A DNA stretch of 18,769 nt from positions 1 through 18,769 of IMG/VR virus record IMGVR_UViG_2541047426_000010, one strand, 5' to 3'. This stretch comes from a virus. Taxonomy: Duplodnaviria; Heunggongvirae; Uroviricota; Caudoviricetes. Below, piece by piece: positions 1-3,000 of this stretch (position 1 is the first letter of the stretch; each line of letters starts with the position of its first letter). Made by a program: the position numbers.

Positions 1-3000
1 AAAGTAAAGAAAACAAAAAAGCCGCCAGTGTCACCCACTGACGGCCAACTCCGGGAGCCGTGATTATGGCATTCAGGCTCTGCTAAAAATGCCAGATAAC
101 ATTCCGGCCTCCCCTGATTCAGGTTATAAATGACACAATATCTTGACAACACCCGTCACTGTCTGTCAGAAAATATACCGCCAGGCATAAGTATCATGTG
201 AAATCCAACTATCCTTCTGAGCCAGCACCTCTCCACCGAAAGTCAGTGCTGGCTGTTTTTTTCCTTAATAAAGCATCTGTAACTGGTTGTTGTTCTGCGG
301 GTTCTGTTCTTCGTTGACATGAGGTTGCCCCGTATTCAGTGTCGCTGATTTGTATTGTCTGAAGTTGTTTTTACGTTAAGTTGATGCAGATCAATTAATA
401 CGATACCTGCGTCATAATTAATTATTTGACGTGGTTTGATGGCGTAGATGCACGTTGTGACATGTAGATGATAATTATTATCATTTTGCGGGTCCTTTCC
501 GGCGATCCGACAGGTTACGGGGCGGCGACCTCGCGGGTTTTCGCTATTTATGAAAATTTTCCGGGATCCATGTCCGGTTTCTCTTCAAGTTAACTATATG
601 AAAAATATAAAAACAGGTCTTCTGTGAACCGGACATGAACAAAAAACAGACATGTAAACCGGACATGACCGGTTTTGTTGTGATTGTGAGGTGAGAGTTT
701 TTGCGAGGTGAGGAGTGGCTACGCAGACTGAAGTTGCCAGGCATTTAAGTCTGACCGATCGCCAGCTTCGCAGATTGCAGAAATTGCCGGGTGCCCCGAT
801 ATCGAATAAGCGAGGGCAACTGGATCTGGATGCCTGGCGCGATTTTTACATATCGTATCTGAGGAGAAGTAAAAACGATGTGCCTGATGGCGATAGCGAA
901 GACGACTATGAGGAGAAATTGCTTATTGCCAGATGGGAACTGACAGCAGAACAGGCTGTTACACAGCAGTTAAAAAATGAGGTGTCAAAAGGAAAACTGA
1001 TTGACACCGGGTTCTGTATTTTTGCCCTCAGTAAGCTGGCAATGGCGTTATCCAGTACGCTTGATTCCATCCCTTTATCCATGCAGCGACAGTTTCCTGA
1101 TTTAACACCGCGCCATCTTGACCATCTGAAAACCCTTATTGCTAAGGGGGCAAATCAGTGTGCGCGGGCAGGGGATAAATTACCGGATTTACTTGATGAA
1201 TATATCAGAGCAACAACTGAATAATATGATGAGCGCTGTCACAACTGCATTACAGCCCCTGATAAGGGCATTGCCGGTGACGCCAGTTGAATGGGCTGAT
1301 CAAAATTATTATCTGCCTAAAGAATCTTCATATGGTGAGGGCGAATGGAAAACGCTGCCATTCCAGATCGCCATCATGAACAGTATGGGGAATGATCAGA
1401 TCCGCACTGTTAATCTGATTAAATCTGCCCGTGTTGGCTATACAAAGATGTTGCTGGGGGGGGGCGGGTATTTTATTGAGCATAAATCCCGAAACAGTCT
1501 GCTTTTTCAGCCCACGGATTCTGCCGCTGAAGATTTTATGAAGTCTCACGTGGAGGCGACGATTCGGAACGTGCCATGCCTGAAAGACCTTTCCCCATGG
1601 CTGGGTCGTAAACATCGTGACAATACTCTCACGCTGAAACGCTTTTCATCGGGCGTCGGTTTCTGGTGCCTGGGCGGCGCTGCCGCCAAAAACTACCGTG
1701 AAAAATCCGTTGACGTGGTCTGCTATGACGAACTTTCCTCGTTCGAGCCGGATGTCGAAAAAGAGGGCTCGCCAACCCTGCTGGGGGATAAGCGTATTGA
1801 GGGGTCGGTGTGGCCAAAATCCATTCGCGGCTCGACGCCTAAAATCAAAGGCACCTGCCAGATCGAAAAAGCCGCTAACGAGTCGGCGCATTTTATGCGT
1901 TTTTATGTGCCCTGCCCGCACTGTGGGGAGGCGCAGTATCTGAAATTTGGCGATGAGTCCACGCCTTTTGGGCTTAAATGGGAGAAGGACAGCCCTGAAA
2001 GTGTTTTCTACCTCTGTGAACATCATGGCTGCGTGATCCATCAGTCTGAACTGGACCAGAGCAACGGGCGGTGGATCTGTGAAAACACGGGCATGTGGAC
2101 CCGTGACGGTCTGACGTTTTTCAGCGCCCGGGGTGATGAAATTCCGCCGCCGCGCTCCATCATGTTCCATATCTGGACGGCGTACAGTCCGTTCACCACC
2201 TGGGTACAGATTGTCTATGACTGGCTGGATGCACTGAAAGATCCCAACGGCCTGAAAACCTTTGTGAACACCACGCTGGGCGAGACCTGGGAAGAGGCCG
2301 TGGGCGAAAAACTCGATCACCAGGTACTGATGGATAAGGTGGTGCGTTACACGGCGGCGGTGCCTGCCCGGGTGGTTTATCTGACGGCGGGCATTGACTC
2401 GCAGCGAAACCGTTTTGAGATGTATGTCTGGGGATGGGCTCCGGGAGAGGAAGCCTTTCTGGTGGATAAAATCATCATTATGGGGCGTCCTGATGAGGAA
2501 GAGACGCTGTTACGTGTGGATGCGGCGATCAACAAAAAATACCGCCATGCGGATGGCACCGAAATGACTATTTCCCGTGTCTGCTGGGACACCGGGGGGA
2601 TCGATGGTGAAATTGTTTATCAGAGATCAAAAAAACACGGTGTTTTCCGGGTGCTGCCGGTAAAAGGCGCATCTGTCTATGGCAAGCCGGTGATCACCAT
2701 GCCAAAAACCCGCAATCAGCGGGGCGTGTATCTGTGTGAAGTGGGAACGGACACCGCAAAAGAAATTCTCTATGCCCGTATGAAAGCCGATCCCTCGCCT
2801 GCGGATGAAGCCACGTCGTATGCCATCCGTTTTCCTGATGATCCGGAGATTTTTTCGCAGACAGAGGCGCAGCAACTGGTGGCGGAAGAGCTGGTGGAGA
2901 AGTGGGAAAAAGGAAAGATGCGTCTGCTGTGGGATAACAAAAAGCGGCGTAACGAAGCGCTGGACTGCCTGGTGTATGCCTACGCGGCATTACGTGTGTC

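What the first reader, a model, noticed from the sequence alone, without database searches (positions are those of the whole stretch)
505..714. Lambda-type cosN and upstream sequence, but cosB repeats and Nu1 differ from lambda (mosaic junction near 560-565)
Positions about 360-563 (right-end sequence, cosN GGGCGGCGACCT at 520-531, and the first ~30 bp of the left end) look nearly identical to lambda as I recall it. From about 564 the sequence diverges from lambda and instead carries three copies of aaccggacatg (one inverted, two direct) around an AT-rich putative IHF site. The adjacent Nu1 homolog has an N-terminal DNA-binding region that also differs from lambda. This fits co-variation of the small-terminase recognition elements with the terminase while the nicking site stays constant. 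A GGATCC hexamer sits exactly at the divergence point (564-569).
Basis: partly seen in the sequence, partly recalled or inferred. Interest (0 to 1): 0.4.

Follow-up and report, generated by a model that had tools for sequence, protein, structure and literature searches.

The report
Lambda-type cos with different terminase-binding repeats
This is the DNA-packaging start site (cos) of a lambda-like prophage of E. coli O157:H7. Its cutting site is identical to lambda's, but the adjacent docking repeats and the DNA-binding head of the small terminase belong to a different, widespread and apparently untested recognition class.

Summary
Window 285-564 is 96-99.6% identical to lambda-like phages and holds cosQ (490-496), cosN (520-531) and lambda bp 13-45. 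From 565 the sequence diverges.

Exact copies of AACCGGACATG lie at 569-579(-), 627-637(+) and 657-667(+). No other match with one mismatch or fewer occurs in 18.8 kb, apart from an overlapping copy at 664-674.

Counted from the cohesive end, the repeats sit where lambda has R3, R2 and R1. An IHF-like site (591-603) lies between the first two.

The small terminase (715-1224) matches lambda Nu1 only in its C-terminal two thirds. Its N-terminal 55 residues are a sequence-divergent winged helix-turn-helix.

In relatives from Klebsiella, Salmonella, Citrobacter and Enterobacter the layout is fixed: R3 at bp 50-60, IHF site at 72-84, inverted R2 at 108-118. Aeromonas and Pseudomonas phages keep the R3 site but carry the inverted copy inside terS.

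All repeat copies switch together (GTCCGGTT or TTCCGGTT) with TerS residue 20 (Arg or Asp/Asn/Ser). Chimeric TerS genes show that cosB plus the DNA-binding domain moves as one module.

About 21% of complete E. coli genomes carry this module.

Verdict: a real cosB of a further specificity class. It is a new member of a known kind. Binding and specificity are inferred, not measured.

The parts
490..496 (+). [quoted passage not shown]
   Evidence: Identical to lambda at the same distance. It is present at 27-30 bp (30 in seven of nine) in all nine relatives examined. Mean conservation is 0.96 over 64 distinct cos regions. Its role in terminating packaging comes from the lambda literature (PMC9026076), not from a test here.
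520..531 (+). cosN: 12-base cohesive-end sequence GGGCGGCGACCT. Predicted nicks lie between 519/520 (top strand) and 531/532 (bottom strand).
   Evidence: Identical to lambda bp 1-12. Nick positions are inferred from lambda. [quoted passage not shown]
532..564 (+). Conserved spacer between cosN and cosB (lambda bp 13-45), including TATTTATGAAAATTTTC. The last stretch identical to lambda ends at 564.
   Evidence: Identical to lambda. The core ATGAAAATTTT is kept in all enteric relatives, whatever their cosB class. Conservation is 0.945.
569..579 (-). R3-equivalent repeat. The top strand reads CATGTCCGGTT, at bp 50-60 from the cohesive end. It is the proposed primary small-terminase binding site.
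   Evidence: Exact copy. It sits at bp 50-60 to 52-62 in every relative. It is the most conserved element of the region, at 0.986. Lambda R3 is bp 50-65 and N15 R3 is bp 48-60 (PMC9026076).
591..603 (-). Candidate IHF site I1 (bp 72-84). The minus strand reads TTTCATATAGTTA, with an A/T-rich tract at 604-615.
   Evidence: Two mismatches to WATCAANNNNTTR. My hand alignment of lambda's I1 gives the same count. Eight of the nine relatives have 0-1 mismatches, seven of them at bp 72-84 to 74-86 on the minus strand; L022's match lies at bp 84-96 on the plus strand, and PhiR12_1 has no match with one mismatch or fewer. Conservation is 0.917. IHF binding was not tested.
627..637 (+). R2-equivalent repeat AACCGGACATG (bp 108-118), inverted relative to R3
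   Evidence: Exact copy. The R3-to-R2 offset is exactly 58 bp in the window and all nine relatives. Conservation is 0.973 against 0.69-0.84 in the flanks.
657..674 (.). R1-equivalent. An exact AACCGGACATG at 657-667(+) overlaps a one-mismatch copy at 664-674(-). Together they form the near-palindrome AACCGGACATGACCGGTT.
   Evidence: Present in PhiR12 phages and Enterobacter (L022), shifted in Klebsiella (L017), and absent in several Salmonella and Citrobacter relatives and some E. coli variants. Conservation is 0.90. It is probably accessory.
715..1224 (+). terS (Nu1 homologue), GTG start, 169 aa. Codons 1-54 (715-876) encode the predicted winged-HTH DNA-binding domain with recognition helix at residues 15-22 (DRQLRRLQ). 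The rest is the Nu1-like oligomerisation and TerL-binding part.
1196..3124 (+). terL (gpA homologue), 642 aa, overlapping the end of terS
   Evidence: 66% identical to lambda gpA over its full length. Relatives carry GpA_ATPase and GpA_nuclease domains.

Best explanation
Window 490-714 is the complete cos site of a lambda-like prophage.

The terminase large subunit would nick at a cosN identical to lambda's. It would be positioned there by the small subunit (TerS) bound to a cosB of a different sequence class.

The proposed recognition unit is the 11-bp element CATGTCCGGTT. Copies lie at bp 50-60 (R3), inverted at bp 108-118 (R2), and in a third, accessory site at bp 138-155 (R1).

By analogy with lambda, a dimer of the TerS N-terminal winged-HTH domains would bind R3 and R2 across a bend made by IHF at bp 72-84.

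The TerS domain that reads these sites (MATQxEVAxHL..R..R.LQK.PG) has lambda Nu1's predicted fold but not its sequence. It therefore defines a packaging recognition class distinct from lambda and N15, and most likely from phage 21.

Shown here:
- the sequence anatomy;
- positional conservation across genera;
- concerted variation of the repeats with TerS;
- modular exchange of cosB with the DNA-binding domain;
- the predicted fold.

Inferred:
- actual TerS and IHF binding;
- the nick positions;
- that heterologous terminases cannot use this site.
For: 1. Non-random repeats. Three exact 11-mers lie within 100 bp and there is none elsewhere in 18.8 kb or in the 40.7-kb prophage.

2. Position. 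The repeats lie at lambda-equivalent bp 50-60, 108-118 and 138-155. Lambda R3 is bp 50-65 and terS starts at bp 196 here against 191 in lambda (PMC9026076).

3. Conserved layout. In Klebsiella, Salmonella, Citrobacter, Enterobacter and other E. coli elements with the same TerS N-terminus, R3, the IHF-like site and inverted R2 keep the same coordinates and a 58-bp offset, while the sequence between them varies.

4. Purifying selection. Over 64 distinct cos regions, identity to the window is 0.986 (R3), 0.973 (R2), 0.917 (I1) and 0.903 (R1), against 0.69-0.84 for the flanks.

5. Concerted variation.
- Every element whose TerS has Arg20 carries GTCCGGTT in all its repeat copies, apart from two single degenerate R2 copies (CATATCCGGTT in L084, CACGTCCGGTT in L199).
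- Every element with Asp, Asn or Ser at residue 20 that has a detectable site carries TTCCGGTT. This includes Aeromonas, Pseudomonas and Azospirillum relatives. Three more distant relatives (L012, L013, L016) have no detectable site.

6. Module exchange.
- L361 has a terS 3' half about 93% identical to the window (my estimate from the alignment) but an N15/Monarch-type N-terminus, and it carries GGTTGTTGTT repeats instead.
- L362 has a lambda/21-like N-terminus and carries GATCC..TTCTT repeats.

8. Viability. Phages PhiR12_1 to _5, which propagate on K-12 and E. coli C, carry the same cosB and TerS at 97% identity.
Against: - No binding, nicking or packaging data exist for this class in anything I could search.
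- The IHF match in this window is weak (two mismatches).
- The exact third repeat has the orientation of R2, not of R3 as in lambda. Several relatives lack R1, so the three-site lambda model may not transfer fully.
- The Arg20/G association is consistent with a single ancestral switch. TerS columns 12 and 36 partition the two groups equally well. It is therefore one evolutionary event, not repeated independent covariation.
- The DNA-pattern scans fixed TCCGGTT. Only the protein-retrieved loci are unbiased.
- This particular prophage looks defective. A strain identical over the region queried (window 500-1230), whose terL differs from the window's by a single 1-nt indel, has frameshifted terL and portal genes and a truncated capsid gene. 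The site may function only in trans or not at all here.
- Exclusivity of specificity is not established. N15 terminase packages lambda DNA despite different R sites (PMC4669245).
Confidence: 0.85

Rival explanations
1. The site is a relic. This copy belongs to a decayed prophage, so it no longer works as a packaging initiation site. Its intact repeats reflect recent ancestry, not current function.
For: - A strain identical over the region queried, whose terL differs from the window's by a single 1-nt indel, is annotated with frameshifted terL, portal, tape-measure and J genes and a truncated major capsid gene.
- The window's terL has a G9 run. It turns the GVAG of phage PhiR12 (GVYA in lambda) into GGGG, next to the KSARVGY motif.
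- Many database copies of this cos have a degenerate R1 or R2, or a disrupted terS.
Against: - All cos elements are intact here and identical to those of viable PhiR12 phages at the repeats.
- Genomes that carry the module hold a median of two copies and up to four, so a co-resident terminase of the same class could act in trans.
- Such trans-packaging of defective Sakai prophages with near-identical putative cos sites has been reported (PMC2669165).
- This rival concerns this copy only. It does not dispute what the elements are.
Confidence: 0.3
2. The repeats are operators for another DNA-binding protein, or they act as RNA hairpins or weak terminators in the late transcript. In either case they would not be terminase-binding sites.
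For: A simple scan finds terminator-like hairpins at 561-577 and 656-675, formed by the CCGG-containing repeats and followed by T-rich tails.
Against: - The left arm of the 561-577 hairpin (CCGGGAT) is not conserved in relatives that keep R3. The R1 palindrome is absent in many relatives.
- The repeats keep a fixed distance from cosN, not from the terS start. That start varies from bp 145 to 196.
- They change together with the TerS N-terminal domain and are replaced when that domain is replaced.
- No other candidate regulator travels with them.
Confidence: 0.04
3. The cosB differs in sequence but not in function. Lambda, 21 or N15-type terminases can use it, or its terminase can use theirs, so it is not a separate packaging specificity.
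For: - N15-specific terminase packages lambda DNA at about half efficiency despite unrelated R3 sequences (PMC4669245).
- cosQ, cosN and the spacer are identical to lambda.
- Plasmids with the unrelated PICI cosB were still transferred at reduced frequency by lambda and phi80 (PMC6092414).
Against: - The R core (TCCGGTT) shares nothing obvious with lambda's CGTTTCC.TTCT or N15's GAGGTTGTTGTTT.
- The recognition helix differs: DRQLRRLQK here, against the SIRTIQNWQE segment of lambda Nu1 that hhalign places opposite it.
- Lambda and 21 differ less than this, yet each discriminates more than 1000-fold against the other (PMC4669245).
Confidence: 0.15

Closest known systems
Bacteriophage lambda cos (cosQ-cosN-cosB with R3-I1-R2-R1) and gpNu1
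   Same: - cosQ, cosN and bp 13-45 are identical.
[quoted passage not shown]
- terS starts at bp 196, against 191 in lambda.
- The TerS C-terminal part is 46% identical and TerL is 66% identical.
- The predicted N-terminal fold is the same.
   Different: - The repeat sequence is CATGTCCGGTT, against lambda's CGTTTCC(G/T)TTCT.
- The exact R1 copy has R2's orientation and is a near-palindrome.
- The TerS N-terminal 50 residues are not alignable by BLASTP or by the Pfam Nu1 profile.
Phage 21 packaging specificity (cosB-21 and gp1)
   Same: The principle is the same. Phage 21 has cosQ and cosN identical to lambda, with diverged R sites and recognition-helix residues that set specificity (PMC4669245).
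   Different: - By my recollection, which I did not check against a sequence here, TerS of phage 21 is a close sequence relative of lambda Nu1.
- L362 carries a lambda/21-like N-terminus and has GATCC..TTCTT repeats.
- The domain in this window is far more divergent.
- No phage 21 sequence was available to me for a direct comparison.
N15 / Monarch packaging specificity
   Same: - It is another lambda-like class with its own DNA-binding domain and R sequence.
- It exists in both a complex (Monarch) and a simple (N15: R3 plus rR2 inside gene 1) architecture (PMC4669245).
- The class found here also shows both. Enteric members are complex. Aeromonas phiARM81ld and Pseudomonas LPPA33 have R3 plus an inverted copy about 200 bp downstream inside terS.
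   Different: - N15 R3 is GAGGTTGTTGTTT and its TerS begins MAVLLNKSDMASSLGISVQAFDKWG.
- There was no tblastn match between the two N-termini at E<=1e-3.
Rpp proteins and cos of Gram-negative PICIs
   Same: - They have lambda-like cosQ and cosN with an unrelated cosB read by a winged-HTH protein (PMC6739421, PMC9026076).
   Different: - The protein here is a full-length TerS with the Nu1 C-terminal part, followed by terL and head genes. It is not a short Rpp on an island that lacks terminase.
- PICI cosB has a single proposed R3 and no IHF site.

Membership tests
Lambda-like cos site | 12-bp cohesive-end sequence (cosN) closely matching lambda, with conserved flanking bases | tested here: met
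   GGGCGGCGACCT at 520-531, with flanks identical to lambda. Cleavage itself is not testable here.
Lambda-like cos site | cosQ heptamer about 30 bp upstream of cosN | tested here: met
   GGGTCCT at 490-496, starting 30 bp before the first base of the cohesive end. It is conserved in all relatives.
Lambda-like cos site | cosB with an R3 element at about bp 48-65 from the cohesive end | tested here: met
   CATGTCCGGTT lies at bp 50-60 and is fixed in position across genera. Reference positions are from PMC9026076.
Complex (lambda-type) cosB | Three related R elements in the order R3-I1-R2-R1, with R2 inverted relative to R3 and R1 | tested here: inconclusive
   Three copies are present and R2 is inverted relative to R3. 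The exact R1 copy has R2's orientation. Only an overlapping one-mismatch copy has R3's orientation.
Complex (lambda-type) cosB | [quoted passage not shown] | tested here: inconclusive
   The best match to WATCAANNNNTTR has two mismatches, at bp 72-84 on the minus strand. Eight of nine relatives have 0-1 mismatches, seven of them at the same position. Binding was not tested.
Lambda packaging specificity | R elements of lambda sequence (CGTTTCC.TTCT) and a lambda-type recognition helix | tested here: not met
   There is no similarity after bp 45. The 11-mer is absent from lambda. The N-terminus is not aligned by BLASTP.
N15/Monarch packaging specificity | R3 of type GAGGTTGTTGTTT and a TerS N-terminus of type MAVLLNKSDMA..GISVQAFDKWG | tested here: not met
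   The N15 left end and gp1 were read directly. No tblastn match was found. L361 shows what that class looks like on an otherwise near-identical terS.
Phage 21 packaging specificity | cosB-21 R elements and the gp1 recognition helix | not tested
   No phage 21 sequence was retrieved. The argument is indirect only: the lambda/21-like domain in L362 has different repeats.
Pfam PF07471 Phage_Nu1 (terminase small subunit) | Match to the family profile above the curated cut-off | tested here: met
   67.9 bits against a cut-off of 30, but only profile positions 62-163 of 164. The N-terminal DNA-binding part of the profile is unmatched.
gpNu1-type winged-HTH DNA-binding domain (MerR-like fold) | An N-terminal fold of about 55 residues: helix, turn, recognition helix, wing, third helix | tested here: met
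Functional terminase-cosB pair | Specific binding of TerS to the R elements and cos cleavage that depends on cosB | not testable with these tools
   Only comparative evidence is available.

The most novel reading that the evidence does not exclude
This is a fourth packaging specificity class of lambda-like phages that has not been characterised experimentally. I call it the 'MATQ' class, with R element CAT(G/T)TCCGGTT.

- It is carried by about a fifth of complete E. coli genomes, often in several co-resident prophages.
- It extends to Salmonella, Klebsiella, Aeromonas, Pseudomonas and alpha-proteobacterial elements.
- It may itself be split into two sub-specificities, set by a single protein-DNA contact: Arg20 with G at bp 53, against Asp/Asn20 with T.

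If so, cosB class would define which defective, virulence-carrying prophages of O157 can be packaged in trans by which helpers.
Probability: 0.55. Interest if true: 0.55.

Novelty: new member of a known kind. Interest (0 to 1): 0.4.

Why it matters
Packaging specificity decides which DNA a lambda-like terminase will put into capsids. The open literature I could search documents three specificities (lambda, 21, N15) and remarks that only modest diversity had been seen (PMC4669245).

This window shows a further, very common class with clear, testable sites. It includes a simple prediction: the residue at TerS position 20 should pair with one base of the repeat.

E. coli O157:H7 and other pathotypes carry several lambdoid prophages. 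Genomes that have this module hold a median of two copies. Sharing or not sharing a cosB class should therefore govern two things:
- trans-packaging of defective prophages and their virulence cargo, a phenomenon already observed in O157 Sakai (PMC2669165);
- which helper phages a PICI-type hijacker can exploit.

The mechanism itself is what the lambda/21/N15 paradigm predicts, so this extends a known principle and does not overturn it.

Tried and rejected
- Chance repeats: rejected.
- Same repeats in lambda: rejected.
- Same class as N15: rejected after reading N15's left end and gp1.
- Gifsy-1, phi80 or 21 type: no phage in the 50,697-record collection other than PhiR12_1 to _5, one further E. 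coli phage (vB_EcoM-705R4, 58%) and some Aeromonas and Pseudomonas phages has this N-terminus. I did not confirm that each named phage is in that collection.
- The genome-contig scan returned only 12 loci, because it holds one genome per species.
- The first viral contigs protein scan returned 80 near-identical E. coli loci.
- The single metagenome scan returned essentially only chance matches.
- L005 and L006 looked like possible domain-swap examples. They turned out to be IS insertions that truncate terS.
- The terminator-like hairpins were rejected as the conserved feature, because their arms are not conserved in relatives.
- GGATCC at the junction was rejected as meaningful, because it is not conserved.
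- Three Feiss-lab look-ups, for two papers, were not held in the library. I cannot exclude that this class is mentioned there.
- I could not establish whether the CFT073 helper 'phage 4' is the CFT073 prophage that carries this TerS. Murialdo and Feiss call its TerS 21-type.
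Full report
**What the window is.**
The window is part of a lambdoid prophage of E. coli O157:H7. Positions 500-1230 are 100% identical to strain PV15-279. The surrounding annotation runs from integrase through Q, lysis genes, terS, terL, portal, head and tail genes, sodC and lom.

**Checking the observation.**
- cosN GGGCGGCGACCT is at 520-531.
- Lambda bp 1-45 is identical to window 520-564.
- The lambda right end aligns with 10 mismatches from about window 285 to 519.
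- Megablast against 50,697 phage records shows lambda-like phages matching exactly 285-564, at 96.4% for lambda and up to 99.6% for others. Only five PhiR12 phages continue to the right, covering 469-1300 at 96%.
- The 11-mer AACCGGACATG occurs exactly at 569-579(-), 627-637(+) and 657-667(+). A one-mismatch copy at 664-674(-) overlaps the third.
- Nothing else in the window matches with one mismatch or fewer. No shuffle reached the observed count at two mismatches or fewer.
- The 40.7-kb prophage locus shows the same four sites and no others. Lambda has none.

**Anatomy relative to lambda.**
- Repeats lie at bp 50-60, 108-118 and 138-148/145-155.
- terS starts at bp 196.
- Lambda R3 is bp 50-65, N15 R3 is bp 48-60, and lambda Nu1 starts at bp 191 (PMC9026076).
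- The first copy reads CATGTCCGGTT on the top strand and the second is its inverse. This matches lambda, where R2 is inverted relative to R3.
- The exact third copy has R2's orientation, unlike lambda's R1. Together with the overlapping one-mismatch copy it forms the near-palindrome AACCGGACATGACCGGTT.
- Between the first two copies, bp 72-84 (window 591-603) matches the IHF consensus WATCAANNNNTTR on the minus strand with two mismatches. By my hand alignment lambda's own I1 matches equally poorly and shares the TAACTnnATG core.

**The small terminase.**
- The ORF at 715-1224 (GTG start, 169 aa) passes the Pfam Phage_Nu1 cut-off. It matches only from residue 49, which is profile positions 62-163 of 164.
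- BLASTP to lambda Nu1 aligns residues 73-164 at 46% identity and nothing before that.
- A profile of 23 relatives aligns end to end with lambda Nu1 (hhalign probability 99.7%). It places TEVARHLSLTDRQLRRLQK opposite lambda's helix-turn-helix, at low confidence.
- A profile search of PDB sequences found nothing.
- An AlphaFold model of residues 1-58 (pLDDT 84) has helices at 4-10, 15-22 and 38-54 with a loop or wing between them.

The domain is therefore predicted to have the gpNu1 fold with an essentially unrelated sequence. TerL is 66% identical to lambda gpA. Everything right of 564 is diverged from lambda, not only the recognition module.

**Comparative evidence that the repeats are the TerS sites.**
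Proteins with the same N-terminus (MATQxEVAxHL..R..R.LQK.PGAP) occur in Klebsiella, Salmonella, Citrobacter and Enterobacter. I fetched eight of their loci by protein identity, which does not bias the DNA.

All eight have:
- cosQ and a lambda-like cohesive end;
- a conserved spacer whose core reads GAAAATTT;
- an element ending in TCCGGTT at bp 50-60 (to 52-62);
- an IHF-consensus match with 0-1 mismatches, at bp 72-84 to 74-86 on the minus strand in seven loci and at bp 84-96 on the plus strand in L022;
- an inverted copy exactly 58 bp after the first.

A third copy is present in only some of them.

Over 64 distinct cos regions of the E. coli type, identity to the window is 0.986 for R3, 0.973 for R2, 0.917 for I1 and 0.903 for R1. 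The intervening stretches score 0.69-0.84.

**Concerted variation.**
- The element comes in two forms, (C/G/A/T)ATGTCCGGTT and (C/G)(A/G)(T/C)TTCCGGTT.
- Within one cos all copies have the same form, apart from two single degenerate R2 copies in E. coli prophages (L084 and L199).
- The form tracks TerS. All proteins with Arg at position 20, in the predicted recognition helix, go with G. All with Asp, Asn or Ser at position 20 that have a detectable site go with T. Three more distant relatives (L012, L013, L016) have no detectable site.
- The T group includes Aeromonas phage phiARM81ld, Pseudomonas phage LPPA33 and Azospirillum elements.
- Columns 12 and 36 separate the two groups equally well. 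The pattern fits a single ancestral switch, so it counts as one event.
- In lambda and 21, residues 20 and 24 of the recognition helix set specificity (PMC4669245). Residue 20 here falls next to that position in the hhalign alignment.

**Module exchange.**
Some TerS proteins have C-terminal parts very close to the window's or to its Salmonella relatives', but other N-termini.
- In E. coli locus L361 the 3' half of terS is about 93% identical in DNA to the window (my estimate from the alignment). The N-terminus is of N15/Monarch type, and upstream there are GGTTGTTGTT repeats in the R3, R2 and R1 positions.
- In Salmonella locus L362 the N-terminus is lambda/21-like and the repeats read GATCC..TTCTT.
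- N15 itself has R3 GAGGTTGTTGTTT and a different TerS N-terminus.

Thus cosB and the DNA-binding domain travel together, and a recombination joint lies inside terS.

**Distribution.**
- The cosB-plus-domain segment (565-900) occurs in 1155 of 5426 complete E. coli genomes, with a median of two copies and up to four.
- CFT073 encodes the identical TerS protein.
- In the phage collection only PhiR12_1 to _5 carry it at the DNA level. These phages propagate on K-12 and E. coli C, so the system is viable.

**Mechanism proposed.**
A TerS dimer binds R3 and R2 across an IHF-induced bend. It anchors TerL so that TerL nicks at 519/520 and 531/532. R1 is accessory. The anatomy, conservation, concerted variation and predicted fold are shown here. 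Binding, bending, nick positions and exclusivity of specificity are inferred from lambda.

**Rivals.**
- A relic site in a decayed prophage is plausible for this copy. A strain identical over the queried region has frameshifted terL and portal genes and a truncated capsid gene. The window's terL carries an unusual G9 run. This does not change what the elements are, and trans-packaging among O157 prophages is documented (PMC2669165).
- Hairpin or terminator function, or a different binding protein, is unlikely. The hairpin arms are not conserved, and the repeats track cosN distance and TerS type.
- Functional equivalence with lambda cannot be excluded without experiments, given the N15 precedent (PMC4669245).

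**Novelty.**
The searchable literature documents the lambda, 21 and N15 specificities (PMC4669245, PMC9026076). It mentions 'putative cos' sequences of Sakai prophages without dissecting them (PMC2669165). I found no description of this repeat or this TerS domain, but three look-ups for two Feiss-lab papers were not available.

I rate this a new member of a known kind. It is moderately interesting to packaging specialists and to those who study prophage mobilisation in pathogenic E. coli.

Noticed in passing
L105 (Aeromonas phage phiARM81ld) bp 52-62 and 251-261; L360 (Pseudomonas phage LPPA33) bp ~139-149 and 339-349: Distant phages have the same TerS N-terminus and a single R3-type site (CATTTCCGGTT or CGTTTCCGGTT) just upstream of terS. 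They also have an exact inverted copy about 200 bp downstream, inside terS. This mirrors the 'simple cosB plus rR2' layout described for N15, whose rR2 is at bp 249-260. The layout may therefore have arisen in more than one specificity class.
   Followed up: partly
window 1452-1467 (in terL): A run of nine G followed by CGGG encodes LLGGGGYF. The viable phage PhiR12_1 has LLGVAGYF and lambda has LLGVYAYF. The run lies just after the KSARVGY motif. It results from three substitutions, not an indel, and might impair or phase-vary the large terminase.
   Followed up: partly
window 2629: The window's terL differs from that of strain PV15-279 by a single 1-nt indel (an extra A in the window). That strain is 100% identical over window 500-1230. 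The indel explains why RefSeq marks that copy as frameshifted while the window's ORF is intact.
   Followed up: yes
window 1-285: The first 285 bases match Stx1-converting phages and H-19B at 94-98% identity, but on the opposite strand. The match stops exactly where the lambda-like segment begins (285). This is a second mosaic junction, with an inversion relative to those phages.
   Followed up: no
L361 1266-2013 versus window 480-1230: An E. coli prophage has a terS whose 3' half is about 93% identical to the window's. Its cosB and first ~70 codons are of N15/Monarch type. This places a recombination joint inside terS, roughly at window 940-985.
   Followed up: partly
L005 and L006 (Shigella flexneri and E. 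coli), positions 517-1458: An IS3-family transposase insertion removes the cos region and the first ~65 codons of this type of terS. The paper on O157 Sakai reports a similar IS disruption of nu1 in Sp4.
   Followed up: yes
L121, L146, L149 (IMG/VR E. coli prophage fragments): Several copies keep R3 but have terS reading MATQ...RRLQKLFPHHYG.... The frame is lost after codon 24, and the distance from cos to terS is 30 bp longer. These are decayed variants of the same module.
   Followed up: no
window 561-577 and 656-675: Two short terminator-like hairpins with T-rich tails are formed by the CCGG-containing repeats. They are not conserved in relatives, so they are probably by-products of the repeat sequence.
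   Followed up: partly
L021, L154, L187 and L237 (Citrobacter-type) versus L359 (N15): The Citrobacter-type members share N15's variant cohesive end GGGCGGCGTCCG and a nearly identical spacer (CGCAGATTCTCGCTAT), although their cosB and TerS domain belong to the class described here. This shows cosN variants and cosB classes reassorting independently.
   Followed up: no
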